Notes under the pieces: generated by a model | The model's input: only the letters and a program-made list of their open reading frames with translations | The model's database searches: none | Told to the model about the DNA's origin: nothing | Assembly: GCA_964014485.1 (NCBI GenBank) | Contig: CAXHAT010000032.1 | Coordinates: 1-50,602, forward strand | Reading direction: 5' to 3' | DNA length: 50,602 nt | Origin: an uncultured Deferribacteres bacterium | GTDB lineage: Bacteria; Zhuqueibacterota; Zhuqueibacteria; Zhuqueibacterales; Geothermadaptataceae | Position numbers and translations under genes: made by a program | Shown here: one piece after another, positions 1,150-46,020 of the stretch | Numbering within the stretch: position 1 is the first letter of the stretch | How the letters are laid out: the number at the start of each line of letters is the position of its first letter

Positions 1150-1830
1150 TTATGGATGCGCGAGAAATTTCGTCCGTGAATTGTTTGCCTTCCAAAGACG
1201 CCATCTTGTCGTCGTAGAAGCGGACTCGGGAAGAAACCGATCCTTCCAGGCGCCGCTAATGCAGGTCAGGCCGTCGGTTCCTTCGAGGTGGTACCAGAGA
1301 CTTTCCGTCTCCAAATCATAAAGGACAAAAGTATTGCGATAGGTCCAGCCGCTCGCGGCAAGCGTCAAGACCTGATTGTCAATTTCTCGACTGTACACGG
1401 CAGTCAGGCCGACGAGCGGTCAGTAAGCCGGAGCGACATGCGTCTCGCCGAAGGTCTCATTCGACACTTCGTGAAAGCTCATCTCGAACAGCGGATAAGC
1501 CCGCGCTTCGCCATTCAGTGAAACGCCAAGTACAAGAAAATCATCGTCATCCCGCGGGTAATTCGGCGATCCGGGAAGCAGAAAATCTGGAAAAATGAGC
1601 GGTGGAATTGCGTGCTTGCCCAGACCATACTGAAAGTCTCTGGCGATGAAGTTATACGTCTTCACGGCATGAGTTACATCCCAGCTTTGACCCGCAAGGT
1701 CCGTGATGAAAATCTTGTCGGCAACACGCTCAACCTCCTGTGGTGATTCAGGGGAGGTAGAAGAAGTTGTACAGCCCTGGTAAACCGCCAAGAAGAGAAT
1801 GAAGAATCGTCCGCCATTTTTGACTTTCAT
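1150..1830 (-). CDS. DUF3179-family probable selenoprotein/lipoprotein, about 226 aa, with in-frame UGA (Sec) at 1420-1422
   Basis: Track ORFs 1420..1830 and 1150..1398 are in the same frame, joined by TGA plus 7 sense codons: H-V-A-P-A-Y-[TGA]-P-L-V-G-L-T-A-V-Y-S-R. The TGA sits at the first Cys of the DUF3179 YCPLC motif. DUF3179 motifs lie on both sides (GEARAYP..HEVSNE; SGWTYRNTFVLYDLETESLW). Lipobox-like YQGC near the N-terminus. Confidence 0.8.
1385..1419 (-). promoter_or_regulatory. Candidate bacterial SECIS hairpin immediately 3' of the UGA
   Basis: Minus strand GACTG-ccgtgta-CAGTC stem-loop starts 14 nt after the UGA, with a possible lower CTC/GAG pairing. Confidence 0.5.
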
Positions 1831-1951: not shown

Positions 1952-2139
1952 CAATGTCACTAACTTTTGCTCGGTCACGCTCAGACAAACTGAAGTTTGA
2001 ACTACAAACCACACAGCATGCTTCTACTCTGAGCGTGAAGAAAGCACTGTCGTTTGTAGTTCAAGCTTCAGCTTGCCTATTTGCCGTAGTCGTTGTCCGT
2101 GCTTCTTGAACTCAAAATCACCAAAAGTTAGTGACATTG
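1952..2139. mobile_element. MITE-like element (188 bp) with perfect 18-bp terminal inverted repeats enclosing a REP-like doublet
   Basis: CAATGTCACTAACTTTTG (1952-1969) / CAAAAGTTAGTGACATTG (2122-2139). Inner inverted pair 1984-2009 / 2052-2077. Flanks GGTTGAAGCG / GGGTGAAGCA match 8/10, a possible decayed target duplication. Confidence 0.7.
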
Positions 2140-7663: not shown

Positions 7664-10600
7664 ATGAGGAAATCTCGAATCGCTCTGATGCGGGCAACAC
7701 AACTTGCACTCGTGTTGATGTGCATGTGTTTTGCCACCCTTGCATTCGGGCAGACGAGCGGAAAGATTGCCGGTACAGTAACAGACAAAGGCTCCGGCGA
7801 CGCGTTGCCAGGCGTGAACGTGCAGATTGAAGGAACGAACCTCGGCGCCAGTACGGACTCGGAAGGTCGTTATTTCATTTTGAATGTTCCTCCGGGCTTG
7901 TACTCAGTCAAAGCTTCTTTTATTGGCTACAAGGCGCAGCGAACAAATGACGTCAAAGTCAGCGTAGGCCAGACGGCCACCACCAATTTCTCTCTTGAGA
8001 CCACGATTATTGAAGGTGAAGAAGTTGTCGTCACGGCAACGAGACCTTTAATCGAGCCAGACCAGACCGTTTCGGTCTCTACCTACAGCTCAACCGAGCT
8101 GAACAACTCTCTCCCTGTTGCAAAAGTCACGGATATTCTTGAAACATCGCCAAGCGTCTATCGCGGATATATCCGGGGCGGCGCACGCTACGAAACGAAA
8201 TTTATCGTCGATGGCGTTGACGTCAACGATAGCTATTTTTCTTCCGGGCAAGGCGCATACGGCGGCGAGTCGGGCGATACCTACTTCAGTAACCGACCGA
8301 CGGACAACAATGATAACACAGGCTTGACGCAGGATGGGCAGACGCTGGCGGAAGTTCAGGTTTTTGCGGGCGTTTTTAATGCTGAGTATCCTTCCGCCAC
8401 TGCAGGCGTCGTCAACATCGTAACGAAAGAAGGCGGACGAGATTTTAACTTTAGTTTTTACAACCGGACTCTCATGAACTCAGGCAAATCTCACGCCGGA
8501 CGGAGTGTCTACTGGGATGCACCAGCTTACCTTGCCGAGCGCGATGAGAAGCTGAATTCTGGAAACGAAGCGCTCGTCGAGCGCGGTAATCTCTTTACCT
8601 GGACGCCTGATCGAGCAAGAGAACTTTACAATTACGATCCGGCTGATTCTTCAAGTCTGAGTCGGTCCCACGAAAACAGCTTTACCTTAAGCGGTCCACT
8701 TGGCTCGAAAGGCGGCTTCTTTTTGGCAGGAAACTATAGTCAGAATGATGGCGCTCTGCCTTTCGAAAGAACCAAGCGGATTGGCGCAAGCCTTAAATTG
8801 CACTACAATTTGTCTCCCACCCAGAAGCTGGTTGCGCGGACGGATTTCAAAGACGGCGGCGAGTTATTCAATTTCGTCAACACGAAATACAATCCTCGCT
8901 TTAAGTACTACCTTGAAGGTGCTCCACGATACAAAGACTTGAGTTCTGTCGGGTTTATCAAGTACACCAACGCATTGAACTCCAAGACCTTTATCGAGAT
9001 CCAGGCGTCCAACACCAGTTTCCGAAACCGTGTCGGTTTTCCCGATGACAACGGCAATGGTATTCCAGAATTAGGCGAAAGTGGAGACTTTATCGAATTT
9101 GCTGATATCGACGAATACATCAAGTATGTCGGCGGCAACGGAAACTTTGGCACGGAGACAGGCTTTGTCTTCGGGGATACAACCCGGACGCAAAGAGTCT
9201 TCTTTTCCTCAACTTTGAACCCCGCCGGTTTTCAGAGACTGAATCAGGCCGAATATGACGTCCTCGGCTATGGGACCAACGGGTTCTATATTACCTCTTA
9301 TCCAATCGCTCTCTATCAGGATTTTAAGCGTTCTAAGACAACGTTTAAAGCGGATGTGACGAGCCAGGTCAATTACAGCAATCTCGTGAAGGCCGGAATT
9401 AGCTTTTCAGTCCACGACATTGACGTCAATTCTCTGGAATCTGAACTGGGTGGTTCGGGCACAGCTTATCCCACCTCGCATTTTCATGTGAACCAGTACA
9501 ATTTCAAGCCAAAAGAAATTGCCATCTACGCGCAAGACAAGATCGAGTTCGTTCAGGGACTGATCGTCAATGTCGGCGCGCGCATCGATGGTTTTGACAA
9601 CGATACGCAGCGCTTTATCAACGATTTCGATCCTCTTGACGAAGTTCTCGAAGGCGGAGAACTGGTTTCTCGTACGCCCAAGCGGGGGGACGACGTGGGC
9701 TTTAACTTCTTCTTTAGCCCGCGCGTTGGTGTTGCCCACCCGGTCACAGATCGCCTGAAGATGAGTTATTCATTCGGACGCTTTTTCCAGTATCCGAACT
9801 TTGAAACCATCTATCGCGATTATAACTTTACCGATTACGCCGCTTCGCCAACGACCCGAACAGTCAATCCAGACCAGGATCCAATTCGGTCTACAAACTA
9901 TGAAATTCGCACTGAATGGTCATTTGCCGATAACTTCCTGATCACAGGAACGGCCTATTATCGTGATGTGTCGAATACCTCTTCACGTGCGATGACCTTG
10001 ACAACGGCTGAAGGCGTTGGTCTCACTTTCAATACCACTTGGGGCTATTCCGATTCTCGTGGTATTGAGGTTGAATTGACCAAGCGCCCAAGCGATTGGT
10101 TCCTCGGAAGTTGGGGCGGTCGTTTGGCCTATGCACATTCGTATATCAAACAAGCCGTTGCTTCCGGCTCGGATCCAACGATTCGAACCAACTTCAACTC
10201 GGCTGTCGACAGTGTGAATTATGCTGAGCTGCCCTTTGATGATCTTGATCGTTTTCCTTCGCGGGAACGAAATGTCCTCGTGACTCAGGGCGGTACAAAT
10301 ATCCTGGCCGGCGGTTATGATCGACCACACCGCTTGACGGGAACTTTGCAGTTGTTTTTCCCCGCCGATTTTACAGCGACTTTCATTGGTGAATGGTCCA
10401 GTGGTTTTTATTATATCGAGACTGAAAACCCTAACAACGACCCGTTCTTTAGTAGAAATGACAACCTTGGAATTGGACCCTCGACTTCATTTATCAATGC
10501 TCGTCTTTCGAAATTCCTCGACTTCGGAGCAACCGGCTTGGAACTGTTCCTGGAAGCACGGAATCTCTTCAATTTCACGAATATTCGGGGTATTTCAAAC

Positions 10601-10798
10601 GGCGGCCTGCCTGGGGCGCCAATCGAGCTTGAACGCGAGATTTGGGAGCAGGGCAGACCCGACGGAGACGGTGGTCGATTGACTGAACCTGAATCCGATC
10701 CTGAAGGTATTTTCGCACAGCCGACTGACCTTTTTGGCCGTTTGTTTTACGAAAATTTACGTGAGATCTATTTCGGTATCAAGTTCAATTTTAAATAG
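7664..10798 (+). CDS. TonB-dependent receptor with N-terminal carboxypeptidase-regulatory-like domain
   Basis: Signal peptide; GKIAGTVTD..LPGVNVQIEGT..GASTDSEGRYFILNVPPG; EVVVTATR; plug motifs (VDGVDVND, GVVNIVTKEG); FSPRVGVA; C-terminal barrel strand YFGIKFNFK; strong SD. Confidence 0.92.
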   Translation: MRKSRIALMRATQLALVLMCMCFATLAFGQTSGKIAGTVTDKGSGDALPGVNVQIEGTNLGASTDSEGRYFILNVPPGLYSVKASFIGYKAQRTNDVKVSVGQTATTNFSLETTIIEGEEVVVTATRPLIEPDQTVSVSTYSSTELNNSLPVAKVTDILETSPSVYRGYIRGGARYETKFIVDGVDVNDSYFSSGQGAYGGESGDTYFSNRPTDNNDNTGLTQDGQTLAEVQVFAGVFNAEYPSATAGVVNIVTKEGGRDFNFSFYNRTLMNSGKSHAGRSVYWDAPAYLAERDEKLNSGNEALVERGNLFTWTPDRARELYNYDPADSSSLSRSHENSFTLSGPLGSKGGFFLAGNYSQNDGALPFERTKRIGASLKLHYNLSPTQKLVARTDFKDGGELFNFVNTKYNPRFKYYLEGAPRYKDLSSVGFIKYTNALNSKTFIEIQASNTSFRNRVGFPDDNGNGIPELGESGDFIEFADIDEYIKYVGGNGNFGTETGFVFGDTTRTQRVFFSSTLNPAGFQRLNQAEYDVLGYGTNGFYITSYPIALYQDFKRSKTTFKADVTSQVNYSNLVKAGISFSVHDIDVNSLESELGGSGTAYPTSHFHVNQYNFKPKEIAIYAQDKIEFVQGLIVNVGARIDGFDNDTQRFINDFDPLDEVLEGGELVSRTPKRGDDVGFNFFFSPRVGVAHPVTDRLKMSYSFGRFFQYPNFETIYRDYNFTDYAASPTTRTVNPDQDPIRSTNYEIRTEWSFADNFLITGTAYYRDVSNTSSRAMTLTTAEGVGLTFNTTWGYSDSRGIEVELTKRPSDWFLGSWGGRLAYAHSYIKQAVASGSDPTIRTNFNSAVDSVNYAELPFDDLDRFPSRERNVLVTQGGTNILAGGYDRPHRLTGTLQLFFPADFTATFIGEWSSGFYYIETENPNNDPFFSRNDNLGIGPSTSFINARLSKFLDFGATGLELFLEARNLFNFTNIRGISNGGLPGAPIELEREIWEQGRPDGDGGRLTEPESDPEGIFAQPTDLFGRLFYENLREIYFGIKFNFK

Positions 10799-10846
10799 AT
10801 CGCCACGCTCCGTACACAGCATTTAGAAATCAATTGAGGAGAAACT

Positions 10847-13426
10847 ATGCTTTCCAGAGAAAGAATAAAGATGCTTGTCGGTATTTTGGCGATGCTGCTC
10901 TTTATGGTCATCGCCTCGACCGCCGAGCGCCCAAAAGGCAACGGCGTCATTGTCGCGGGAAATACCTGGGGGACTTACCGGCCGCCTCATGTCCCGGATA
11001 GTCACCCAAGAAATCGTTACGTTGAAGACTTTCAAACGCGTGGCGATAACACAACCGCCAACGGCAACTGGATTTTCTTCCAGTCGCGCATGGTGACGAG
11101 TCAGCTCTTCGGCAACCCTGCCTTTAGCTGGCCGTTTGGGAAAAACATCGTCGATTGCTGGGGCGGCGCCCTTGCAGCAACGATCTACGATCCTCGCGCC
11201 GAATTTGCTTCGGTAAACGGAAATAACTATGAAGCGCCTCCCGTCGAAGCGCTCGATCTGAACTATTCCTCTTTGCGCTATGGTTCGAATATTCCGGGGG
11301 CCGGAGATCCATCACGCGATTACGTGAACCCTGGCGGCAAGGCTGGCGGCGGCGCGATATTTACCGATGATCGTAAGGCAATCGCCTACTATGAAGCAGG
11401 CTGGCCTACGAATGTCGGCGTCGATGTGAAGCTGAAAGTCTATTCCATCACGACCCCCTGGGGCCATTTGGATGACAATCATCTCGTTGAAGTTGAATTC
11501 TACAATACGGGCGTCCAGGATCTCGACAACGACGGCAATGTCGATTTCACCGATCAGAAGATTCACTCTCTCGTCATGAACTACTACGGTGAGCCTTGGT
11601 TCATGATGATGCGTCCTGCCGGTAATCGTGGATACAATACGGGCGGCTATCGTCCTGCTGCACACGATGCGACTCCGGATGAGAATGGTTCTCCCTGGGC
11701 CTACTCAATGCACAGCTTCGGTGCAAGAAACAGTGCCACGGAAGCTGATCCCGGGATTGGTAATCAGTCTCCCGCCACGGGTTGGTACAATGATATCGCC
11801 TACGGCTACACTTTTGTCGGCGCAAAGTCGATCGACGAAAATGGCAATATGGTCGGCGACAAAATGCTGTCCTTCAAAAATTCTTCAGGTGAGCAGGTTG
11901 TTCATCCTACAGGCGAAGGAGTTCGGCGTGGATGGTTTCAGACAAATACCAATACCGAATCCACTGGCGGTACTTTTTCAGCGCGCAACATGCATCTCCT
12001 GGGCGCCGGCTCGTTCTTCACCGATGGCGGGAAAAGCCGTTCTCGCGCCCAATTGGATCTGACGCCAAATCCAAATCTGTTCGCCTCTGGCGATTTGGAA
12101 GACCTGACGACTTTCATCGTGAAAGATGATCCGTCCTCGTGGATGATGCCTGACGGCGCGTACGAGTTCTCGACGCCTGTCTTCGATTACAATGGGATCG
12201 CGATTCCCAATGGTAACCCGATTGCCGAATCCGGCGGCAGACCGCTGCATATCGATTACATCCATGAAGGCACGATCTCCGAGAACAATTTCAACGACGT
12301 CATGCAGGCCGGTTTTGGCCCGTTTGATCTGGAAGTTGGCGAGCGGATGCGCGTTTATTTCGTACGTGCGCAGGGATTTCGTCCAAAGCAGTTGCGCGGT
12401 GCGATCAAGGCTGGTCGTATGATGGTTGAAGCCATTAGTAACAGTCCTGACGGTAGTCTGCCTGATCCTGGTGCACCTGCTGTTCCGGATATTCGTGTAA
12501 CTGGCTCGGTCAATGTGAAGCCGCTCATTATGTTCGACGACGTGGCGGATGCGGATGGCTACAAGATCTACCGATCCAAAGCCTGGCCTCTTTTCGACCC
12601 GACGACGGAAGGCCTGATGTATGAAGGCGTGTATTGGAAGACGATGACGCCTGGTGAGGAGAATAGACCGCAGTCGGATCCAATCAATCCGCTTCTCACA
12701 GACCATACGCTGATTCGCCCGCGAAATGGCGAGCACTGGGGACCCTATTCCCTCGTAAAGGTCATCAGTTCAAGTGAACTGGAGAACTTCCGCAATCCTC
12801 GTACTCAGGATGCAGGTCAGTATCCTTATGCTTATGAAGACAGCGAAGATGCGTTTACGCTGCCTGGTCAGACGTTCTACTATTATGTCGCCTCCTTTAA
12901 AAACCAGAGAGCCAATGCACCTTACGATCAATTGGAAGATGGTTCCGTATCCTGGATTGAGAGCGGCAAGGTGAATGTCAACGGCCGCGACGGCTTCTGG
13001 CAAAATACCTGGCACAATACGACGCGCTACGCGTTCTTTCCTGATGAGCAGGACTCAGAAGCACTCCAAGCGGTTGGCGCCGCGTATACCCTTGTTTCGC
13101 CAACCGTCGCCCCGGCGGAACTCGAATTGGAACGTGCGAAAATTGTCGTGCGGCCAAATCCATACAAGCGACTTGCTTTCCACGATGTTGGCACCGAAAG
13201 CAAGATCCTTTTCGCGAATTTGCCACAGCAGGCAACGATTACGATTCTGGACATCTCCGGGCAAATTGTTGACAAAATCGACTACACTGCTCCAACGGCT
13301 GAGAACGGAACCTATTTCTGGGACATGTTCTCGAAGGATGGAACGCGTGTAGCAAGTGGCGTCTATATCTGGGTCGTCGAGCATGATCGCGGCGCGGAAA
13401 AAGGCACGTTGGCAATCATTCGATAA
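10847..13426 (+). CDS. Large secreted protein with T9SS-type (Por secretion tail/FlgD-Ig-like) C-terminal domain, function unknown
   Basis: Signal peptide; C-terminus VVRPNPY..ILFANLP..TITILDISGQIV..WD..DGTRVASGVYIWVVE..GTLAIIR; DLDNDGNVDFTD Ca-binding-like motif. Confidence 0.8.
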   Translation: MLSRERIKMLVGILAMLLFMVIASTAERPKGNGVIVAGNTWGTYRPPHVPDSHPRNRYVEDFQTRGDNTTANGNWIFFQSRMVTSQLFGNPAFSWPFGKNIVDCWGGALAATIYDPRAEFASVNGNNYEAPPVEALDLNYSSLRYGSNIPGAGDPSRDYVNPGGKAGGGAIFTDDRKAIAYYEAGWPTNVGVDVKLKVYSITTPWGHLDDNHLVEVEFYNTGVQDLDNDGNVDFTDQKIHSLVMNYYGEPWFMMMRPAGNRGYNTGGYRPAAHDATPDENGSPWAYSMHSFGARNSATEADPGIGNQSPATGWYNDIAYGYTFVGAKSIDENGNMVGDKMLSFKNSSGEQVVHPTGEGVRRGWFQTNTNTESTGGTFSARNMHLLGAGSFFTDGGKSRSRAQLDLTPNPNLFASGDLEDLTTFIVKDDPSSWMMPDGAYEFSTPVFDYNGIAIPNGNPIAESGGRPLHIDYIHEGTISENNFNDVMQAGFGPFDLEVGERMRVYFVRAQGFRPKQLRGAIKAGRMMVEAISNSPDGSLPDPGAPAVPDIRVTGSVNVKPLIMFDDVADADGYKIYRSKAWPLFDPTTEGLMYEGVYWKTMTPGEENRPQSDPINPLLTDHTLIRPRNGEHWGPYSLVKVISSSELENFRNPRTQDAGQYPYAYEDSEDAFTLPGQTFYYYVASFKNQRANAPYDQLEDGSVSWIESGKVNVNGRDGFWQNTWHNTTRYAFFPDEQDSEALQAVGAAYTLVSPTVAPAELELERAKIVVRPNPYKRLAFHDVGTESKILFANLPQQATITILDISGQIVDKIDYTAPTAENGTYFWDMFSKDGTRVASGVYIWVVEHDRGAEKGTLAIIR

Positions 13427-13479
13427 ACACGGAACCGTAAATGCATAAACGCATTTTCCAATTTGTAAGGAGTTCGCTA

Positions 13480-14502
13480 ATGCGTAGATATGGTTATTTG
13501 ATCATTGCGGTTTCCATGTTTGGCCTTTTGGGCTCAGGAACCGTAATGGCGCAGGAAAACAAGACGGGGCTTACCGGCGCCAATTTTCTGAAAATTGGTG
13601 TTGGTGCACGTCAGGTTGGACTTGGCTCAGCCGCTACGACAATATCCGACGATCCGCATATGATGTTTTGGAATCCGGCAGGTATTGTCAACATGGCTTC
13701 AGATGGCGGGAAAACACAGGTTGCCATGACGCACAATCAGTGGCTGCTTGAAATGCAGCACAATGCTTTTGCGTTCACTCGCGATCTTGGCAGCATTGGT
13801 ACATTGGGAATTGGCGTGGTTCACATTGGTCTCGGCGACATTGTCGCTGACCGTGACGTCGCGCCGACTCCGGCTTTGGCGAACCAGCAGGCAGATCTGG
13901 CCACTGGTGCGACATTCAACTTCTATGATCTGGCTGTCAATGTGACGCTGGCGCATCAATTTACCGAGCGCTTGTCTCTCGGTGCGAGCGTCAAGTTCAT
14001 CAGCGAGAAGATCGACGATCTTACCGCGAATGCAATTGCCGGTGATTTCGGTGTGATTTATGACACCGGCTGGCAAGGACTGCGTCTTGGCGCCAGGATG
14101 AGCAATCTCGGCTCCGATCTTTCATTCTATGATGACGCAGGTACAGAGCCTGTGCCGATTCCGCTGATTTTCTCCTTTGGCGCCTCATTCGATATTGCCC
14201 GCCAGGCTGATTCGCGTCTCGTGGCGCTCCTCGACGCCAACAAGCGTCAGGATAGCAAGCAGCTCTATTTCGGCGGCATGGAATGGCGACTGATGGAGCA
14301 GTTTTCTCTTCGTGGCGGCTATAAGTTCGGGTTCTCGAACGACAAGAACAAAGCGGGTATCAACTCGACCGATGAAGGACTCTCCTTCGGCGGCGGCGTG
14401 AATGTGCCCTTTGGCAACGCACGCGTTCAGCTTGACTACGCTTTTACCCAATTTAACCTCCTCGATGATACACACAGATTCTCCTTCTCCATCTCCTTCT
14501 AA
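13480..14502 (+). CDS. PorV/PorQ-like (UPF0164) outer-membrane beta-barrel
   Basis: GANFLKIGVGARQVGLGSA, MFWNPAG, LRGGY, C-terminal HRFSFSISF; SD AAGGAG before ATG 13480. Confidence 0.85.
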   Translation: MRRYGYLIIAVSMFGLLGSGTVMAQENKTGLTGANFLKIGVGARQVGLGSAATTISDDPHMMFWNPAGIVNMASDGGKTQVAMTHNQWLLEMQHNAFAFTRDLGSIGTLGIGVVHIGLGDIVADRDVAPTPALANQQADLATGATFNFYDLAVNVTLAHQFTERLSLGASVKFISEKIDDLTANAIAGDFGVIYDTGWQGLRLGARMSNLGSDLSFYDDAGTEPVPIPLIFSFGASFDIARQADSRLVALLDANKRQDSKQLYFGGMEWRLMEQFSLRGGYKFGFSNDKNKAGINSTDEGLSFGGGVNVPFGNARVQLDYAFTQFNLLDDTHRFSFSISF

Positions 14503-14522
14503 CAGGTTAATTGGTTAAACGC

Positions 14523-14576
14523 AAACGGAGTCCCGGGATCGCTTCGCTAATGGAGTGTGACCGGGATTTCTGTTTT
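14523..14576 (+). terminator. Putative intrinsic terminator after the PorV-like gene
   Basis: TCCCGG (14531-14536) pairs with CCGGGA (14561-14566), with inner wobble pairs, followed by TTTCTGTTTT. Confidence 0.45.
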
Positions 14577-14642
14577 GAATCATTTGTCATTTTCGTTGCC
14601 CCTTATTTGCCTCTGTCAATTTCCTTGATATTATTTATCCAT

Positions 14643-16538
14643 ATGCATATCCGAACACAGTCCAAATCATCTTCTGTCACGCGGCTTACTGTTCTAGCAG
14701 CCATTCTGCTTCTCCAGCTTAAGTCTCCCAAACTTGCCGCGGCACAGGATTTCAGACCGGCTTCCGCCCCTTCCGGCTTGGAACGCGCGTATTTCGGGCA
14801 TGGGGCTGCTGTTGCAGATTATGACAATGACGGCTGGCTGGACGTCTATCTTGTCTCCAAGACGCCCTATAGCCGAACCCTTGCCGGCTCTGCCAACATG
14901 CTGTTCCGGAATCTGGGTGACGGTTCCTTCAAAGATATGGCGGAGTTTGCCGGAGTCCGCGGTACGAGAGATACCACCCGGATGGCAAATAGTGAAGTTA
15001 TTCTGAATTATGGCGCAACCTGGGCAGATTATGACAATGATGGAGACGCCGATCTCTTTCTGACCAACAAGGGAACCAATGTGCTTTACGAAAACCTCGG
15101 CGACGGCATTTTCGCGGATATGACCGCAGATGCGGGGCTGAATCTACATTTCCGTGAAAGCACCAGTGCCGCCTGGTTCGACTATGATCGAGACGGTGAC
15201 CTTGACTTGCACATCAGCAATTATCAGCAGTATGGCGTGATCCCCAGTTCAGATAATGTGCTCTATGAAAATCAAAACGATGGGACATTTATCGACGTAA
15301 CCGATATAGCTGGCGTCCAGGGTGGAGGATTCGGCAGCGCGGATATGGGTTTTTCCGGGATTACGTACTGCACGCTCGTTCTCGATGCAGACCTCGACGG
15401 GTGGCCCGACCTCTACCAAGTCAACGATTTCGGCTACAACGTCCTTTTTATCAATCAAAAAAATGGGGCGTTTGTCGAAGCGACGGCAGCATATGGTCTG
15501 GAAGACAGCGGGCATGGTATGGGAGCGACGCTCGGAGACTTTGACAACGATGGTCTCCTCGATGTTTATCTCACCAATATCGCAGATGATCTGGAAGAAG
15601 AGTGGAGCCCTCTGTTTCGGCGCACGGGCAGTGGAACTTATCAGGACGTGACAAAATCGACAGGCACGGGGATAACAAATTGGGCCTGGGGGTGCGAGTT
15701 TCTCGACTACGATCTCGATGGCGACTTGGACATTTACGTGGTCAACGGCAATCTTGGCAATGACTATCGGAACTACTTTTTTCGCAACGAAGGCAATGGG
15801 GCGTTCGCAGATATCAGTGAGTTAAGCGGGACGGACAGCGATGAAGAAGCCCGCGGCCTCGCTGTCGCAGATTTTAACAACGATGGGCGCCTGGATATGT
15901 TCGTCGCGAACTGGCGCGCTCCCGCCCAACTTTATCTTAACCACACGACAACGGGGAGTTACCTGAAGGTAAACCTGATTGGTCAAACCAGCAACAGAGA
16001 TGCGTATGGCGCCATCGTGCGCCTGGAAGCTGAAGGGCAAAAGCTGATGCGCGTCAACGACGGCGTCGAATTTCTGGGGCAGTCGAAGACGCCATTACAT
16101 TTCGGCTTGTCCACTGCTCAGAGCATCAACAGGATGACCATTGAATGGCCTTCCGGGCAAGTCCAGACGCTTGATGACTTAGCCGTGAATCAAACCGTGA
16201 CCATCGTTGAAGGGCAGGGCATAGTGACCGCACTGGATTCTGAAAACCCGCCTGCGCCCGGCGCTTTCGCTTTGCACAATCCTTCACCGAATCCTGTCAG
16301 ATCGCTGGTTACCTTGAGATTTTCTCTCCCCAAGCCGGGTTACACGTCGCTGGTCATTTATGATCTGCTCGGGCGTCAGGTGCGTCGGCTGGAGGAGAAA
16401 CAGCAGCCCGCCGGTCTGAACTCAGTACGCTGGGACGGGCGTGATCAGCAGCGGCGCCTCGTGCCAGAGGGCGTCTATTTTGCCCGACTGACCTTTTCGG
16501 GCGCAACCCAACATCAGAAACTGATCGTTCTTAGATGA
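14643..16538 (+). CDS. FG-GAP/VCBS repeat + ASPIC/UnbV (CRTAC1-like) protein with T9SS-type C-terminal domain
   Basis: Seven DxDxDGxxD repeats; SNRDAYGAIV..LHFGL..IEWPSG (ASPIC/UnbV); NPSPNP..IYDLLGRQVR..WDGRD..GVYFARL..KLIVLR; start placed at ATG 14643. Confidence 0.88.
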   Translation: MHIRTQSKSSSVTRLTVLAAILLLQLKSPKLAAAQDFRPASAPSGLERAYFGHGAAVADYDNDGWLDVYLVSKTPYSRTLAGSANMLFRNLGDGSFKDMAEFAGVRGTRDTTRMANSEVILNYGATWADYDNDGDADLFLTNKGTNVLYENLGDGIFADMTADAGLNLHFRESTSAAWFDYDRDGDLDLHISNYQQYGVIPSSDNVLYENQNDGTFIDVTDIAGVQGGGFGSADMGFSGITYCTLVLDADLDGWPDLYQVNDFGYNVLFINQKNGAFVEATAAYGLEDSGHGMGATLGDFDNDGLLDVYLTNIADDLEEEWSPLFRRTGSGTYQDVTKSTGTGITNWAWGCEFLDYDLDGDLDIYVVNGNLGNDYRNYFFRNEGNGAFADISELSGTDSDEEARGLAVADFNNDGRLDMFVANWRAPAQLYLNHTTTGSYLKVNLIGQTSNRDAYGAIVRLEAEGQKLMRVNDGVEFLGQSKTPLHFGLSTAQSINRMTIEWPSGQVQTLDDLAVNQTVTIVEGQGIVTALDSENPPAPGAFALHNPSPNPVRSLVTLRFSLPKPGYTSLVIYDLLGRQVRRLEEKQQPAGLNSVRWDGRDQQRRLVPEGVYFARLTFSGATQHQKLIVLR

Positions 16539-17869
16539 GACCACTCACGCTAAGTCTCCTTCTGTTTTGGTGCTTCTTGGTGGCTTGTCGCCATGAGCAA
16601 CCTCTCACGATCGATTCATCAGACCCTGCCGCTGACCTGCCTAAACTCACTTTGTTAACGGATCCGACTGTTTGTGCAACCTGCCATCCAACGCACTACG
16701 AGGAATGGCAAGGATCAATGCACGCGTATGCCGCGGTTGACCCGGCATTCATCAAAATGCAAAAATTGGGACAAAAAGAAACGAATGGACAGGTCGATCA
16801 GTTTTGTGTGCAGTGTCATTCTCCCATTGTGAGTAAGCTGGGGCTCGCTCCCGTAAATTACGAAAATGAGGATTTACCTCCAATTGGCCTTCACGGGGTC
16901 TCTTGTCAAGCCTGTCACAGGATCAGCCACGTGCTCGAAGCTCGGAACGCCAGTTTCGAATACGATTCGAGCTCGGTTATTTTCGGCCCCCTGCGCCAGC
17001 CTGTAGCAAATACATACCATACTTCAGAATACAACGCGATATTCGAGACCAGCGAGTTGTGCGGCGCGTGCCACAACGTCGTCAATCCGCGTGAGATTAA
17101 GATTGAGAACACCTTCGATGAATGGCTTCAGAGCCCGGCGGCTGCTGCAGGCCAGACTTGTCAGTCCTGCCACATGCCGTCCTATGAAGGCCAGGCTGCC
17201 GTAGATGGACCTACACGAGAAGTGCATCGGCATTTTTTTGTGGGCGTCGATGTCGCTCTAATCGATTTCCCTGACCGGGAACGCCAGCGCCGGATGGTTG
17301 AATCGCTGCTCCAATCCGCAGCCGAAATATCAGTGAATCCGGCACGCCAGGCGAGGCGCAACGATTTCTTGCCAATCGAAGTCATGATTACCAGTAAAAC
17401 CGCGGGACATCATTTGCCCTCTGGCGCCACGGCAGACCGTCAGATGTGGTTGTCCGTTAAAGTCAGCGATGCAGCTAATGGGCGGGTCTTCTACGAATCT
17501 GGCGGCTTGGACGCGAACGGAGATCTGATGGATCGCCACAGTGAGCTCGCCCCGGACGCCGACACAGATCTTGCTCTGTACAATCAACAAATGGCCGGCC
17601 GGGATGGGGAAGACGTCTTCTTTTCCTGGCAGGCGTATGCTGAGAGAACGATAACGATTCCGCCTTTGGCCACGGTTCGCCCGAAATACGTCGCTTTTAT
17701 CCCCCAGGATGCTGGCGACTCCCTTCGAATTGAAGTTGCCTTGCGCTTTCGCACCTTTCCGCCGTTCTTGCTGCGAAAACTGGGATTACCCGATTTGGCG
17801 GCCGCCGTGCCTATCGTCGACATGGCCACGCGTTCTTTCACCATGCCCATTGTAAAAGACGGATCGTAG
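16535..17869 (+). CDS. Multiheme (5 CxxCH) cytochrome c lipoprotein, c554-like, with Ig-like C-terminal region
   Basis: CATCH, CVQCH, CQACH, CGACH, CQSCH; lipobox LVAC; AGHHLPSG motif; ATGA overlap with the upstream gene. Confidence 0.88.
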   Translation: MRPLTLSLLLFWCFLVACRHEQPLTIDSSDPAADLPKLTLLTDPTVCATCHPTHYEEWQGSMHAYAAVDPAFIKMQKLGQKETNGQVDQFCVQCHSPIVSKLGLAPVNYENEDLPPIGLHGVSCQACHRISHVLEARNASFEYDSSSVIFGPLRQPVANTYHTSEYNAIFETSELCGACHNVVNPREIKIENTFDEWLQSPAAAAGQTCQSCHMPSYEGQAAVDGPTREVHRHFFVGVDVALIDFPDRERQRRMVESLLQSAAEISVNPARQARRNDFLPIEVMITSKTAGHHLPSGATADRQMWLSVKVSDAANGRVFYESGGLDANGDLMDRHSELAPDADTDLALYNQQMAGRDGEDVFFSWQAYAERTITIPPLATVRPKYVAFIPQDAGDSLRIEVALRFRTFPPFLLRKLGLPDLAAAVPIVDMATRSFTMPIVKDGS

Positions 17870-29349: not shown

Positions 29350-30369
29350 CTAAAAATTTATTTGCATGTTGATGAGTAATTGATGGTGTTTGAAAACCCG
29401 ATCGTCAGGATCAAAAACGTAGTTGATCTGTAACTTCGCCGTGCTGGTCGGCCAATGATTGTAACCCAAAATGAACAAATCGCGGCTTTCCGTGTTGCCA
29501 AAATTCATATAATCCCACCGCAGCAGCATCTGGTTTTTCTCGTCCAAATTATGCGCGCCGGTTAAGTGAAAACCCCAAGGATTTTCCGGGGCGCTTTGCG
29601 GTTGCGACTCTTTCAGTCGCGCGCGGATAAATTCGCCGCTCAAAAAGCCTCTCGCGGACGACCATCGAAAATCGCCGCCATACAAGAGACGTTTCCCGTT
29701 CGAATAGCCTAGAATATTCACAGAACCATCTTTGCTATAGGCTGCGTTCAAGCCGATCTCAATCGGTTTTTGGGATTCGTTGCGGTTGGGGAAAAACGCC
29801 CACCGCGCGACATACAAGAATGCGTTGTTGTCGTTTAGATTGCCGCCGAAATTATCACCGTTAAAAATTCCGGCGCTGTAAGTCGCACCGCCGTTTGCCA
29901 GATTTCCGTGCGCCTGCACGCCAAGCTGCCGTTTCAATGCCAGCAAATTCACAACCTGCGGGCGTTTCACAAAATCGGTTTTCGAAGCTGAGACCAAAAA
30001 ACTCCCGCTGAACGGCGCCTTGAAAAGCCCGGCGTCGATCCCAAAATTTGAAGAAACGCGGTAAGAAGCGCGGGCGTCAACAATCGCCGTGGATTTGGTG
30101 AAATCCGCGTGGAGAAAATAGCTAAATCCGCCGTCGAGAGCGCCCCTGATATTGACGCGCATTTTGGAAATGCTGAACCCGCTCTTGCCGCTGAAACTCC
30201 GCTCCGATTGAAAGTCTCCAACCACCTGCAACAACGCGCCAAAACTCAAGGCTTCCGTCTTGAAATTCTCTTTTAGTTGCTCCCACTTTGGTTCGTCCTG
30301 CGCTTGCGAGCTCGCGTATTGCAGAGAAAGAAGGAGAACAAAAATAGAAAATGGTTTTAGGCGAATCAT
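29350..30369 (-). CDS. Outer-membrane porin (phosphate-selective porin O/P-like)
   Basis: Signal peptide from MIRLKP; GLFKAPFS, RQLGVQ, YSAGIFNG; C-terminal Phe (MQINF). Confidence 0.75.
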   Translation of the reverse strand: MIRLKPFSIFVLLLSLQYASSQAQDEPKWEQLKENFKTEALSFGALLQVVGDFQSERSFSGKSGFSISKMRVNIRGALDGGFSYFLHADFTKSTAIVDARASYRVSSNFGIDAGLFKAPFSGSFLVSASKTDFVKRPQVVNLLALKRQLGVQAHGNLANGGATYSAGIFNGDNFGGNLNDNNAFLYVARWAFFPNRNESQKPIEIGLNAAYSKDGSVNILGYSNGKRLLYGGDFRWSSARGFLSGEFIRARLKESQPQSAPENPWGFHLTGAHNLDEKNQMLLRWDYMNFGNTESRDLFILGYNHWPTSTAKLQINYVFDPDDRVFKHHQLLINMQINF

Positions 30370-30409
30370 GTTGCGGACTCCCCAATTTTGTTGATTAAGG
30401 CGGCGATGT

Positions 30410-31402
30410 TTATTTCCCAGGCTTAAGCCAAAAAAGGTCAATTGCAAATCGCAGCTCATCCGCGATCTGCTCCCGACGATAGCCCGTTTGCAGAGCGAAT
30501 CGCAGATTACGCCAGGAAAAGCTGTAACGACCGACTCCGGCGGTGAAAATTTTATTGTCCACATGTCCGCCGAGATTCTGCGCCCAACCGGCGCGGATCA
30601 TCAGCCACCAGAAAATGTTTGTCTCGCCGCCGGTAAACATGCGCACCGGCGTGTCTTCGTGAAGCGCCGGCTGCAGATCGAACGCGACGCGTACGTTGCG
30701 GCTGATGTAGGCCATGCCGAATTTGAGTTTGGAAGGGATGCGCTGCGAGTAGCGCCCGTTTGCCGAAGAATTCCATCGAAACGTGCCGAAAGCGTCTTTC
30801 CAGACTGCGCCGACGCGCCACTCGCTATGCTGGAAAAAATACCCCAAGTCCACGCCAAAGCCGCCGCCGCCGCCGGTAATCCGATCTTCGCCGCCGTCAA
30901 CATTGTCGCCGAACGAGGCAACGCGCGTTTTGACAGTGACGGAAAAAGCCATGTCATCGACAAACTTTTGCCGGGCAAGGGAAGCGGGAAGAATTTTGTT
31001 TGCCCGGATGGCGCCGCCAACTCCCAGGGTTGTTTCGCTCAACAAGGCGTCTCCAACTTGCTGCACGCTGAGCCCCCAAACGCCTGGGCCGTAAGGATAG
31101 ATCGCGCCGATGTAAGTCGCCGGGACGACGCCGAAAATCTTGGTGGTTGTGGCGGAAAGCGCCGCGAATCTTGAAAAGCCCGCCGCCGCCATGTTGTGCT
31201 CAACGGCGTTGCCGTCATTGGAAAGCGCCGAAGAAGCTCCGCCCATGCTTGCGGGACGTACGCCGAGGTTCAACTCCGCAAACGCGCCTGCGATATTGGA
31301 AAATTGCTGTGCAGTTAAGGAATGTGATAAGCCGGTTAAAATGTACCAGAAAAACACTTTCCAAGCCAATGAGCGGTTCTTTCTTCTCACTTCAATTACC
31401 AT
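30410..31402 (-). CDS. Second PorV/PorQ-like outer-membrane protein
   Basis: GAFAELNLGVRPASMGGA..ALSND..HNMAA, GFGVDLG, IRAG; start uncertain. Confidence 0.65.
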   Translation of the reverse strand: MVIEVRRKNRSLAWKVFFWYILTGLSHSLTAQQFSNIAGAFAELNLGVRPASMGGASSALSNDGNAVEHNMAAAGFSRFAALSATTTKIFGVVPATYIGAIYPYGPGVWGLSVQQVGDALLSETTLGVGGAIRANKILPASLARQKFVDDMAFSVTVKTRVASFGDNVDGGEDRITGGGGGFGVDLGYFFQHSEWRVGAVWKDAFGTFRWNSSANGRYSQRIPSKLKFGMAYISRNVRVAFDLQPALHEDTPVRMFTGGETNIFWWLMIRAGWAQNLGGHVDNKIFTAGVGRYSFSWRNLRFALQTGYRREQIADELRFAIDLFWLKPGK

Positions 31403-32487
31403 TTTAGTAGAATTTTTTCTACCCTGTCTATGTCAAGTTGAGTATTGACGTCTAACCCGCTCTCTCGAACAACTCCAACCAAGGCCACCTTGTGGCTAAA
31501 CGTGACGTACCATGTTGACGTTTCCCCGCTTTTGCTTGTGATGCGAATCTTCAAATGTAGCTTGGAAGACTTTTCTTCGCTAATTTTCTCTAACAATTCG
31601 ATATACTGAAGTTGTTGGAGCAAGATTTTCCCTGCTTGTGATTCATCGCCAGAGAGTTCTTTTCTTAAGTTGAGATCATGATGATGTCCATGAAAAGAGC
31701 CAAATCCCCTATATACATGAAATATTATTGGTTCAGGAGAACCAGAAACAAAAATTAATGCACCTCCTGCGGGAGTTGAATCAAAAATTTTCTGATACTT
31801 TTTTTGCATATCTTCAACGGACATAGGCGATCTAAACTTATCGAGAAATGTTTGTCTTCTCTTGCCAATGTCAAAGTTTGAACTATCTCCCTCACTGCCG
31901 GGGGCGACGGGTTTAGAAACATTTGTGCTTCGTCCTTGTTCATGGCGAGCGTTACTTGAGCGAAGTTGCTCTTCGAGCTTCTGTTTTTGCAAATTAAGCT
32001 TTTTTACTTCGGCCTGAAGTCTAACGTTTTCTTGTTTCAGTTTTTTATTTTCATTCTTTAACTCTTCGAAGTTTATCCCCCCTAAGATCTTCGTTATATT
32101 TTGAATCGAATTTTCGTTTTCAAGATTTGTTGCCTGTAACCCCCTTAGAAATGGAGGCAGAGCATTTATTTCAAACCCACGCATCAAAAGTGGGATTAAG
32201 CGCCTTGAACCCGGTTGGTAATAAAGGTCTTGAAATGCTTGATACTCCATTTTTACCCATTTTGACGTCATGGAGTTGTTTGAGCACACAAGTAAAAAAT
32301 GTTTACTGTTTTCTAGGCTGGTTTCTATGACTTCACGCCATCCGCTGCCAGAATCTTCTTTTAAGGATTCGGTAGACCAAAATACACGTAATCCGTTGGT
32401 GCTGAGCTCTTGCCAAATAGGCCTTACAAAGTCAATATCCTCTTTGGCAAAACTGATAAATACGTCGTAATCGAATACATCTTGCAT
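31396..32487 (-). CDS. TIR domain protein (TIR + coiled coil + unknown C-terminal region)
   Basis: YDVFISFAKED, LRVFW, SKWVKME (catalytic Glu position), IPLL..LPPFL; leucine heptads LKNENKKLKQENVRLQAEVKKL; visibly AT-richer than neighbours. Confidence 0.85.
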   Translation of the reverse strand: MQDVFDYDVFISFAKEDIDFVRPIWQELSTNGLRVFWSTESLKEDSGSGWREVIETSLENSKHFLLVCSNNSMTSKWVKMEYQAFQDLYYQPGSRRLIPLLMRGFEINALPPFLRGLQATNLENENSIQNITKILGGINFEELKNENKKLKQENVRLQAEVKKLNLQKQKLEEQLRSSNARHEQGRSTNVSKPVAPGSEGDSSNFDIGKRRQTFLDKFRSPMSVEDMQKKYQKIFDSTPAGGALIFVSGSPEPIIFHVYRGFGSFHGHHHDLNLRKELSGDESQAGKILLQQLQYIELLEKISEEKSSKLHLKIRITSKSGETSTWYVTFSHKVALVGVVRESGLDVNTQLDIDRVEKILLKW

Positions 32488-45807: not shown

Positions 45808-46020
45808 TTATGCTCTTGCTTCCCCGGCGAACTTTTTTTTCACGGAGCTTTTTGCCGAAACCCCATTTTTGCTGTTTTTCGCAAAAGAAATGATTTTTTT
45901 CCCGCAGAGTTTTTGGCGCTTTTGATACTCTTGTACAATTGCGTATATATCATAATCGAATTTCGCTGCATGTTCCTGACGAATTTGATGAATTTCTTCA
46001 ATAATCGGATCATTCCACAT
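45808..46020 (-). CDS. Small protein, putative antitoxin partner of the PIN protein
   Basis: MWNDPIIEEIHQIRQEHA..FDYD motif; start overlaps the 3' end of the PIN gene. Confidence 0.65.
   Translation of the reverse strand: MWNDPIIEEIHQIRQEHAAKFDYDIYAIVQEYQKRQKLCGKKIISFAKNSKNGVSAKSSVKKKFAGEARA

What the first reader, a model, noticed from the sequence alone, without database searches (positions are those of the whole stretch)
1150..1830. Hidden selenoprotein: DUF3179 gene read through an in-frame UGA with a SECIS-like hairpin
Seen: two track ORFs form one frame interrupted only by TGA at 1420-1422 (VAPAY-U-PLVGLTAVYSR), with a GACTG/CAGTC hairpin 14 nt downstream. Known: DUF3179 proteins carry a YCPLC-type motif at this position and Sec-containing members exist. 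Inference: this is a Sec-containing exported lipoprotein that lacks the second Cys (U-P-L-V), so a single-selenol active site. Standard pipelines would call it a pseudogene or two ORFs.
Basis: partly seen in the sequence, partly recalled or inferred. Interest (0 to 1): 0.75.

Follow-up and report, generated by a model that had tools for sequence, protein, structure and literature searches.

The report
Selenocysteine-containing DUF3179 lipoprotein gene
A gene that looks cut in two by a stop codon is really one gene in which that stop codon is read as the rare amino acid selenocysteine, as in almost all of its close relatives; the protein family was already listed as containing such members, so this is a sound but fairly ordinary find.

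Summary
On the minus strand, 1830..1150 is one 226-codon frame broken only by TGA at 1420-1422. The GACUG/CAGUC hairpin starts 14 nt after it.

The read-through protein matches Pfam DUF3179 (E 1.4e-30). Of 165 homologous proteins, 73 have Cys at this column and 72 end there. In DNA of 91 related gene copies from 78 genome loci, the codon is TGA in 88, with conserved protein on both sides.

The hairpin is conserved and covaries: 97.3% of cells are paired and 4 of 6 pairs change on both sides. Silent codon positions are frozen only inside it. TGA is an ordinary stop elsewhere in the window, ending 12 of 35 long ORFs.

So this is a selenoprotein gene that gene callers cut short. It is a single-repeat, lipoprotein-type branch of DUF3179. 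This branch lacks the CxxC second Cys but usually carries a distal Cys190, so "single selenol" is not established.

DUF3179 is already listed as a prokaryotic selenoprotein family (PMC9312934, PMC13188914), so this is a new member of a known kind. Selenocysteine machinery could not be checked in the source genome. The biochemical function remains unknown.

The parts
1150..1830 (-). Complete read-through coding sequence: 226 codons plus the TAA stop, encoding a single-repeat DUF3179 selenoprotein
   Evidence: translation with TGA=U. (PF11376, 107.2 bits against a cut-off of 27; residues 73-224 match profile positions 2-148 of 292). (aligns end to end with uninterrupted 215-261 aa homologs).
1771..1830 (-). 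N-terminal signal peptide ending in Cys20 (MKVKNGGRFFILFLAVYQGC), the putative lipoprotein signal and lipidated Cys
   Evidence: Read directly from the sequence. A Cys after a hydrophobic leader is found at the equivalent place in 79 of 88 related copies, and 48 of 88 fit a loose lipobox pattern. The window's own box, Y-Q-G-C, is not canonical. No signal-peptide predictor was available.
1420..1422 (-). In-frame UGA, inferred selenocysteine codon (residue 137)
   Evidence: The same column is Cys in 73 of 165 homologs, and 72 of 165 end there. The codon is TGA in 88 of 91 gene copies in related genomes, with TGT, TCC and CGC once each.
1388..1406 (-). SECIS-like hairpin: stem U-GACUG / CAGUC-G around a 7-nt loop CCGUGUA, with 19 nt between UGA and the loop
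   Evidence: 97.3% of cells paired; 4 of 6 pairs change on both sides; pair 28/42 is GC 60, AU 14, GU 10. (third codon positions inside the hairpin are conserved in 82-87 of 88 sequences, against at most 63 of 88 outside it). Loop bases G34 and U35 are invariant. The stem has decayed in the Cys (TGT) paralog even though its amino acids are the same.
1261..1263 (-). Cys190 (TGC) in the LTCISG motif, a candidate partner thiol for Sec137
   Evidence: Nearly invariant in the short-form alignment A2. Present in 68 of 88 Sec copies. Found in 21 of 29 short forms against 3 of 59 long forms. Among Cys137 homologs it is present in 2 of 47 with the CxxC second Cys and 12 of 26 without it. Spatial closeness to residue 137 was not measured.

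Best explanation
The stretch 1830..1150 on the minus strand is one gene for a 226-residue protein, not two.

Shown by comparison:
- The UGA at 1420-1422 stands where relatives have Cys.
- It is itself conserved as UGA in nearly all close relatives.
- It is followed at a fixed distance by a conserved, covarying stem-loop whose loop holds an invariant G-U.

Inferred from the established bacterial pathway:
- SelB, carrying Sec-tRNA(Sec), binds this hairpin as the ribosome reaches the UGA.
- Selenocysteine is then inserted instead of termination.

The product is a single-repeat form of the DUF3179 domain; the usual long form is a tandem duplication. It has a lipoprotein-type signal peptide, so it most likely sits outside the cytoplasm, anchored to a membrane (inferred).

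Sec137 replaces the first Cys of the family's C-P-L-C motif. In this branch the second Cys is gone, and a distal Cys190 is usually present.

My best guess at chemistry is an extracytoplasmic redox site, or a metal- or chalcogen-binding site. Sec137 would be the reactive nucleophile. Cys190, where present, would form a selenenyl-sulfide with it. This last step is inference only and I put it at roughly one in three. The confidence below is for the selenoprotein-gene reading.
For: - **One frame, one internal stop:**
- **Family:** DUF3179 at E 1.4e-30.
- **Protein homologs:** of 165 homologs, 73 have Cys at the column and 72 end there.
- **DNA of relatives:** TGA is the codon in 88 of 91 copies from 78 loci. 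The loci were fetched by a peptide pattern in the C-terminal half, so not by the TGA itself.
- **Downstream frame:** it stays open for a median of 90 codons. Pro follows the TGA in 87 of 88 copies, and Val at +8 is present in 88 of 88.
- **Hairpin:** covariation, and silent-site conservation confined to the hairpin.
- **Cys paralog:** the one Cys (TGT) paralog encodes the same peptide but has lost the stem. It scores 30.7 bits against 46-84 bits for the UGA copies under the model built from them.
- **TGA elsewhere:** it ends 12 of 35 long ORFs in the window, including a full-length Iso_dh match. The organism therefore does not read TGA as sense in general.
- **Literature:** DUF3179 is listed as a selenoprotein family with motif UxxC/T (table rows read in PMC9312934, and PMC13188914).
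- **Machinery in the lineage:** selA, selB and selD are reported in KSB1 genome bins, one of the lineages holding the closest relatives (passage in PMC9012183).
- **Spacing and shape:** 19 nt to the loop, a 7-nt loop and a 5-6 bp stem fit the published bacterial SECIS model (Fig. 2 legend of PMC13188914).
- **Lipoprotein leader:** family pattern.
- **Single repeat:** 21 long-form proteins match the query twice.
Against: - No selA, selB or selD is seen among the 35 long ORFs.
- No tRNA-Sec is found in the window or in the 78 related loci. The machinery in this genome is therefore untested.
- The window's hairpin is weak: -5.4 to -5.8 kcal/mol, against the model's -7.5 kcal/mol or lower. It is not in the window's minimum-energy fold, and single-sequence z-scores are unremarkable.
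- The conserved G is at loop position 3, whereas the published model asks for position 1 or 2. It would fit only if C32-G36 closes the loop into a triloop.
- No Rfam family matches.
- Two homologs show Trp at the column.
- An eight-member clade has Gln, Asp, Glu or Arg there, so the residue is dispensable for some relatives.
- Twenty of 88 Sec copies lack Cys190.
- Nothing here shows selenium in the protein.
Confidence: 0.88

Rival explanations
1. UGA at this site is decoded as some other amino acid, not selenocysteine. Candidates are Trp, Cys or Gly, inserted by a suppressor tRNA or by local near-cognate read-through.
For: Two homologs from short contigs (P0003 and P0004) carry Trp at the column. 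No selenocysteine machinery is visible in the window. The base after UGA is C in at least 90% of copies; as I recall, this is a weak termination context.
Against: TGA ends 12 of 35 long ORFs in the window. The uninterrupted homologs have Cys in 73 cases, not Trp. None of the 91 DNA copies has TGG. The two Trp rows sit inside Sec clades, which is what a gene caller using a TGA=Trp table on a short contig would produce. A conserved, covarying hairpin at SECIS distance has no role in simple suppression.
Confidence: 0.05
2. There are two separate translated ORFs. The first ends at the UGA, and the second restarts at the in-frame GUG 21 nt downstream, which lies in the hairpin loop. This would be termination-reinitiation or a split gene.
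For: The GUG is present in 87 of 88 distinct sequences. The ORF listing starts the second ORF there. Gene callers produce exactly these pieces (P0002; 72 proteins ending at the column and 3 starting just after it).
Against: The seven codons between UGA and GUG are conserved as protein: P in 87 of 88, L in 83, L in 81 and A in 77. They align with C-P-L-x-x-L-x-A of uninterrupted homologs. The AlphaFold model runs through the junction as one strand, residues 130-137, with block-mean pLDDT of 98 over residues 121-150. I saw no conserved ribosome-binding motif in that interval (alignment).
Confidence: 0.03
3. The gene is a pseudogene, or the TGA is a sequencing or assembly error.
For: A single in-frame stop is what a fresh nonsense mutation or a base error looks like. 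The reads could not be examined.
Against: The same codon at the same column is TGA in 88 of 91 copies across several phyla, with both halves conserved and open.
Confidence: 0.02

Closest known systems
DUF3179 (PF11376) selenoproteins, listed with motif UxxC/T in reviews of prokaryotic selenoproteomes (PMC9312934 Table; PMC13188914 Table). Both attribute the family to Zhang & Gladyshev 2007, PMC1976440.
   Same: Same Pfam family. Sec sits at the first Cys of the family's C-P-L-C motif. UGA is followed by a stem-loop inside the coding region.
   Different: - The motif here is U-P-L-V. Position +3 in the relatives is V, I, A, E or R, not C or T.
- The protein is a single repeat of about 226 aa, matching profile positions 2-148 of 292, with a lipoprotein-type leader and a distal Cys190.
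- I read only the table rows of the two reviews. I also read the outline and section 12 of the 2007 paper, which uses older names (OS_HP1 and others) and never the name DUF3179. I could not tell which of its families this is, nor whether short forms were included.
Canonical long-form DUF3179 proteins (about 300-400 aa, C-P-L-C)
   Same: Homologous domain. Shared conserved residues include R110, Y112, G161, W162, D172, S177 and W179.
   Different: - Long forms contain the domain twice (21 proteins match the query twice).
- Long forms keep CxxC (47 of 88 rows).
- Long forms have Ala at position 190 (36 of 59 long rows).
- No member has a known function or a solved structure.
Bacterial SECIS elements, as in E. 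coli fdhF, and the consensus model quoted in PMC13188914 Fig. 2
   Same: The stem-loop lies within the coding region just after UGA. It has 19 nt to the loop (the model allows 16-37), a 7-nt loop (3-9) and a 5-6 bp stem (4-16). The loop holds an invariant G-U; from memory, G23 and U24 of fdhF are the SelB contacts.
   Different: - The G is at loop position 3, not 1 or 2.
- The window's local hairpin energy, -5.4 to -5.8 kcal/mol, misses the -7.5 threshold.
- The loop sequence CCGUGUA is almost invariant across several phyla. That is more sequence conservation than the generic model implies.

Membership tests
Pfam DUF3179 (PF11376) | Score above the curated gathering threshold | tested here: met
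   107.2 bits against a cut-off of 27, E 1.4e-30.
Pfam DUF3179 (PF11376) | Full-length two-repeat architecture (292-position profile) | tested here: not met
   Only profile positions 2-148 are matched. Long forms match the query twice. The window protein is a single-repeat form, as are its 215-261 aa relatives.
Bacterial selenoprotein gene | In-frame UGA aligned with Cys in homologs, with conservation on both sides | tested here: met
   Of 165 homologs, 73 have Cys at the column and 72 end there. TGA is the codon in 88 of 91 DNA copies, with conserved flanks.
Bacterial selenoprotein gene | SECIS stem-loop downstream of UGA: spacing 16-37 nt, loop 3-9 nt, upper stem 4-16 bp | tested here: met
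   Spacing 19 nt, loop 7 nt and stem 5-6 bp, supported by covariation. Model constraints are from PMC13188914.
Bacterial selenoprotein gene | G in the first two loop positions, and minimum free energy of -7.5 kcal/mol or lower | tested here: not met
   Energy: not met for the conserved hairpin, which is -5.4 to -5.8 kcal/mol in the window; the family mean is -6.4 and the best is -8.9 kcal/mol. The 45-nt stretch as a whole folds at -10.2 kcal/mol, but into another structure. Loop G: inconclusive. The invariant G is at loop position 3; it would be at position 2 of a triloop if C32-G36 pairs.
Bacterial selenoprotein gene | selA, selB, selC and selD present in the same genome | not testable with these tools
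   None are in the 50.6-kb window or in the 78 related loci (tRNA scan only). The source genome is not available. A passage in PMC9012183 reports selA, selB and selD in KSB1 bins.
Bacterial selenoprotein gene | Selenium actually incorporated at the UGA | not testable with these tools
   Needs 75Se labelling or mass spectrometry.
Bacterial lipoprotein | Signal peptide with a lipobox ending in Cys | tested here: inconclusive
   The window has a charged start, a hydrophobic run and Cys20, but the box Y-Q-G-C is not canonical. Of the 88 relatives, 79 have the Cys and 48 fit a loose lipobox pattern. No dedicated predictor was run.

The most novel reading that the evidence does not exclude
This may be a distinct, almost obligately selenocysteine-using branch of DUF3179.

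- TGA is the codon in 88 of 91 copies, and several copies often occur per genome.
- The proteins are membrane-anchored and extracytoplasmic, in KSB1, Calditrichota, Latescibacterota and neighbouring phyla.
- The fold has no relative in the Protein Data Bank.
- The CxxC partner cysteine has moved to a distal strand, giving a Sec137...Cys190 selenenyl-sulfide.
- The SECIS loop CCGUGUA is nearly invariant across phyla, which would point to an unusually strict or unusual SelB-RNA recognition in these lineages.
Probability: 0.3. Interest if true: 0.5.

Novelty: new member of a known kind. Interest (0 to 1): 0.35.

Why it matters
**Annotation.** This gene and dozens of relatives are stored in public protein sets as truncated fragments of about 130-160 aa. 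Seventy-two of the 165 homologs examined end at the Sec column, and the window's own product is stored as the 136-aa P0002. Reading them through restores a family of about 226-aa proteins.

**Biology.** It adds a well-supported, nearly always-Sec branch to a domain of unknown function. That branch probably lies outside the cytoplasm, and it occurs in poorly studied phyla. It also gives a compact, strongly conserved SECIS variant, with covariation, that could be used to train selenoprotein finders.

It does not open a new category. DUF3179 is already on the list of selenoprotein families, and the function stays unknown.

Tried and rejected
- **General TGA reassignment (code 4 or 25).** Rejected, because TGA ends 12 of 35 long ORFs, including full-length domain matches.
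- **Other selenoprotein genes in the window.** A scan for TGA with at least 50 open codons before and at least 40 after gave many hits in non-coding frames. None lay at the end of another called gene (one search checked). Sec close to a C-terminus would be missed.
- **RNA searches.** Rfam gave no match at gathering thresholds over the whole window, nor at E<=1 over 1100-2300. ARAGORN found no tRNA-Sec in the window or in the 78 loci.
- **NCBIfam.** No family matched.
- **Solved structures.** Nothing was found by sequence (best E 0.33). Nothing was found by fold: Foldseek of the pLDDT 92.6 model gave 0 matches at E<=0.001, with best E 0.17 and TM at most 0.2.
- **ESM Atlas.** Run with the natural Cys homolog P0010, it returned only DUF3179 clusters.
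- **Gene neighbourhood.** The most frequent neighbour is a protein of about 310 aa with no Pfam family and a signal peptide, found in 22 loci. It has no relative in the window, so no conserved partner could be assigned to the window gene.
- **Homodimer test.** The idea was that a single repeat might pair up to mimic the two-repeat long form. A run with the natural Cys homolog P0010 gave no verdict, with score 0.00. This is neither for nor against.
- **Covariance model.** A model of the UGA-plus-hairpin region found its 89 training sequences, the Cys paralog (30.7 bits) and two weak hits (17.2 and 14 bits). There is no second copy in the window, and it gave no evidence about other gene families.
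- **Not possible.**
  - Model coordinates are not returned, so the Sec137-Cys190 distance is unknown.
  - The supplement of PMC9012183 (Table S7) was not read.

Full report
**1. The observation**

The gene lies on the minus strand. Translating 1830..1150 gives 226 residues and a final TAA. The single internal stop is TGA at + strand 1420-1422, in the context ...GETHVAPAY-U-PLVGLTAVYSREIDNQ....

Under table 11 the frame appears as a 136-aa ORF (1420..1830) and an 82-aa ORF that starts at a GTG (1150..1398). The first of these is already in the public protein set as a separate 136-aa protein, P0002.

After the UGA come 14 nt, then GACUG, a 7-nt loop CCGUGUA, and CAGUC. These lie at + strand 1405-1401, 1400-1394 and 1393-1389. 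A U.G pair (1406/1388) can extend the stem.

Taken alone, this hairpin is unremarkable.
- Fold z-scores are -1.9, -0.3 and -0.5.
- The hairpin itself is worth only -5.4 to -5.8 kcal/mol.
- It is displaced in the window's minimum-energy fold by a window-specific CGGC/GCCG pairing.

**2. What the protein is**

The read-through protein matches Pfam DUF3179 (PF11376) at 107.2 bits, E 1.4e-30. Only profile positions 2-148 of 292 are covered. No NCBIfam model matches.

A word-indexed search found 18 relatives. An exhaustive HMMER search found 4777 at E<=0.001, of which the best 150 were listed.

Long-form DUF3179 proteins of 300-420 aa match the query twice; this was seen in 21 proteins. The usual family member is therefore a tandem duplication, and the window protein is a single-repeat form. 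Its closest relatives are the same, at 215-261 aa and 30-57% identity.

The N-terminus, MKVKNGGRFFILFLAVYQGC, looks like a lipoprotein signal. A Cys after a hydrophobic leader occurs at the equivalent place in 79 of 88 related copies, and 48 of them fit a loose lipobox pattern. The window's own Y-Q-G-C box is not canonical, and I had no dedicated predictor.

An AlphaFold model built on a 57-row alignment is confident, with mean pLDDT 92.6 and pTM 0.84. It is mostly beta-strand. It has no relative among solved structures:
- by sequence, the best E is 0.33;
- by fold, there are 0 matches at E<=0.001, the best E is 0.17, and TM is at most 0.2.

**3. The column of the UGA**

I compared 165 homologous proteins with the query.

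| Residue aligned with position 137 | Number of proteins |
|---|---|
| Cys | 73 |
| Protein ends at or just before this column | 72 |
| Ser | 4 |
| Gln | 3 |
| Protein begins just after the column | 3 |
| Trp | 2 |
| Asp | 2 |
| Does not cover the column | 2 |
| Thr, Glu, Arg, Gly | 1 each |

A protein set cannot show Sec, so I fetched DNA. A scan of one genome per species used a peptide pattern from the C-terminal half, [YFH]DxE[TS][EGS]S[LM]W[YF]. It is therefore blind to the codon in question.
- The scan matched 147 stretches, of which 130 were confirmed as relatives.
- The best 80 were kept, giving 78 loci.
- All are metagenome-assembled genomes. They are titled candidate division KSB1, Calditrichota, Latescibacterota, Krumholzibacteriia and Gemmatimonadota, with a few others.
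- The best identity is 59-63%, so the window's own genome is not in that collection.

Walking back from the C-terminal match to the column found 91 gene copies on the matched strand. The codon is TGA in 88, and TGT, TCC and CGC in one each. None has TGG.

In the 88 TGA copies:
- the frame stays open for a median of 90 further codons;
- the next residues are conserved as protein (P 87/88, L 83/88, L 81/88 at +5, A 77/88 at +7, V 88/88 at +8).

Ten loci carry two or three Sec copies in tandem. Several genomes contribute several loci (contig names).

**4. The hairpin**

I aligned 60 nt around the UGA from the window and the 88 copies. There are no gaps.

For the stem at columns 26-31 with 39-44:
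- 97.3% of cells form a standard pair, against 18-55% when the partner is slid by 1-3 columns;
- 4 of 6 pairs show changes on both sides;
- 0 of 500 column shuffles reach the observed pairing, covariation score or count of double changes.

The clearest pair is 28/42, with GC 60, AU 14 and GU 10. Here an Ala/Thr codon change on one arm goes with a silent AGC/AGU change on the other. The window has the A-U version.

Two sequences carry GGGUG...CACCC and two carry GGCCG/CGCCG...CGGUC/CGGCA. These are compensated changes at other stem positions.

Third codon positions inside the hairpin are held in 82-87 of 88 distinct sequences. Outside it the commonest base reaches at most 63 of 88 at the positions I tabulated (columns 3, 6, 15, 18, 21, 24, 45, 48, 51 and 54). 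Column 9, the Tyr codon before the UGA, is the exception at 82.

Loop positions G34 and U35 are invariant.

The single Cys (TGT) paralog encodes the same L-T-A-V-Y-S-R peptide, but silent changes have broken its stem. It scores 30.7 bits under a covariance model on which the UGA copies score 46-84 bits. Those copies are the training set, so they match by construction. This is one example only.

Against the published consensus for bacterial SECIS elements (Fig. 2 legend of PMC13188914, read as passages):
- The spacing of 19 nt, the 7-nt loop and the 5-6 bp stem all fit.
- The requirement for a G in the first two loop positions is met only if C32 pairs with G36, leaving a CGU triloop.
- The window's local energy misses the -7.5 kcal/mol limit. 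Across the family the mean is -6.4 kcal/mol, and the hairpin is in the minimum-energy fold of 68 of 89 sequences.
- The same review says that a subset of predicted bacterial SECIS elements does not satisfy the model.

From memory, not from a call: the loop G-U recalls the G23/U24 contacts of SelB on the E. coli fdhF element.

**5. Alternatives**

- **General reassignment of TGA is excluded.** TGA ends 12 of 35 long ORFs, including one with an end-to-end isocitrate/isopropylmalate dehydrogenase match.
- **A pseudogene or an assembly error is excluded** by the conservation of TGA itself.
- **Termination followed by restart at the loop GUG is unlikely.** The intervening codons are conserved as protein and align with uninterrupted homologs.
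- **Decoding as another amino acid cannot be excluded by computation.** The two Trp rows, P0003 and P0004, come from short contigs and sit inside Sec clades in the tree; one is in a clade with 98% support. That fits a gene caller having applied a TGA=Trp table.

**6. Selenocysteine machinery**

None of the 35 long ORFs of the window matches SelA, SelB or SelD families. No tRNA gene is present in the window, and no tRNA-Sec is found in the 78 loci. This is expected for 50 kb and is no evidence either way.

A study of KSB1 genome bins reports selA, selB and selD in all clades but one (passages of PMC9012183). Its supplementary table was not read.

**7. The active site**

Long forms have C-P-L-C in 47 of 88 rows, whereas short forms have [C/U]-P-L-[V/A/I].

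The short forms, however, carry a Cys at position 190 in the LTCISG motif.
- It is nearly invariant in alignment A2.
- It is present in the window (TGC at 1263-1261).
- It is present in 68 of 88 Sec copies; the others have Gly (13), Ser (6) or Ala (1).
- Among Cys137 homologs, Cys190 goes with absence of the CxxC partner: 12 of 26 without it, against 2 of 47 with it. Fisher's p is 3e-5, not corrected for shared ancestry.

This suggests that the partner thiol moved, rather than vanished. Three cautions apply. I could not measure the distance, because no coordinates are returned. A fifth of the Sec copies lack Cys190. One eight-member clade (Gln/Asp/Glu/Arg) has lost the residue at 137 altogether.

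In the tree, Cys forms are scattered among Sec forms. Nine changes are needed, of which at least four are forced by well-supported branches. Sec and Cys have therefore interchanged repeatedly.

**8. Function**

Nothing is known for any DUF3179 member. The full-text library holds the name in three papers only: two reviews that list it in a table, and one gene table. A search for the accession added one unrelated preprint, of which I saw only the search listing.

The neighbourhood is not informative for the window. Its flanking genes are an epimerase-like and an amidohydrolase-like gene. The commonest neighbour in relatives is a signal-peptide protein of about 310 aa with no Pfam family, found in 22 loci, and it is absent from the window.

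My working model is an extracytoplasmic, membrane-anchored redox or metal/chalcogen-binding protein with Sec137 as the nucleophile. This is inference from three things: the Cys/Sec exchange, the CxxC ancestry and the leader peptide.

**9. Novelty and verdict**

DUF3179 is already listed as a prokaryotic selenoprotein family with motif UxxC/T. Both reviews credit Zhang and Gladyshev 2007. The section of that paper I read lists its new families under older names and never uses the name DUF3179.

This gene is therefore a new member of a known kind, in a branch with several distinguishing features:
- a single repeat;
- a lipoprotein leader;
- no CxxC;
- a distal Cys;
- Sec in 88 of 91 copies;
- a near-invariant SECIS loop.

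I found no description of this branch in the searches named above.

Its interest score of 0.75 is too high for a family already on the list.

Noticed in passing
window 1952-2139 (intergenic, upstream of the DUF3179 gene): A nested palindrome of about 188 nt. It has perfect 18-nt terminal inverted repeats (1952-1969 / 2122-2139), an inner 42-nt inverted repeat at 81% (1983-2024 / 2037-2078) and an 11-nt one (1975-1985 / 2028-2038). The terminal repeat occurs nowhere else in the window, and there is no Rfam match. It could be a miniature transposable element or a large regulatory hairpin.
   Followed up: partly
window 7664-17869: A run of cell-surface genes: a TonB-dependent receptor-like protein with a CarboxypepD_reg domain, two proteins with FlgD_ig-type C-terminal domains, a PorV-like protein, an FG-GAP/ASPIC protein and a multihaem cytochrome. 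This fits an organism of the Bacteroidota-related group that uses type IX secretion.
   Followed up: no
window 31396-32487, 39377-42658 and 46010-46498: A TIR-domain protein, a 1093-aa SNF2-family helicase with the bacterial SNF2-associated domain, and a PIN-domain protein. These may be defence or toxin-antitoxin related. They were not examined.
   Followed up: no
window 29350-30564 and 30410-31402 (minus strand): Two long ORFs overlap by about 155 nt. The first has a partial phosphate-selective porin match and the second has no Pfam match. This may be a frameshift or a wrong start.
   Followed up: no
related loci, e.g. L001 10684-11649, L005 10752-11681, L012 10684-11640: A protein of about 305-335 aa, with a signal peptide and no Pfam family, lies next to the Sec-DUF3179 gene in 22 loci, on either strand. 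It has no relative in the window. By eye it looks like an outer-membrane beta-barrel; this was not tested.
   Followed up: partly
L003, L004, L023, L025, L026, L027, L049, L050, L054, L071 and L002: Tandem arrays of two or three paralogous DUF3179 genes, most of them with TGA. L002 pairs a Sec copy with a Cys copy, and L023 has two Sec copies plus a Ser copy. Several genomes also contribute three or four separate loci.
   Followed up: partly
L020 11689-12735; also L031 and L054: A radical SAM protein with a DUF3641 domain lies about 1.3 kb downstream of the Sec-DUF3179 gene in three Latescibacterota loci. No link was tested.
   Followed up: no
proteins P0026, P0028, P0029, P0031, P0032, P0044, P0057 and locus L077: A well-supported clade (95% SH-aLRT, 8 rows) of short-form DUF3179 proteins has Gln, Asp, Glu or Arg instead of Cys/Sec at the column. 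Most members still keep Cys190. This branch must work without the reactive residue.
   Followed up: partly
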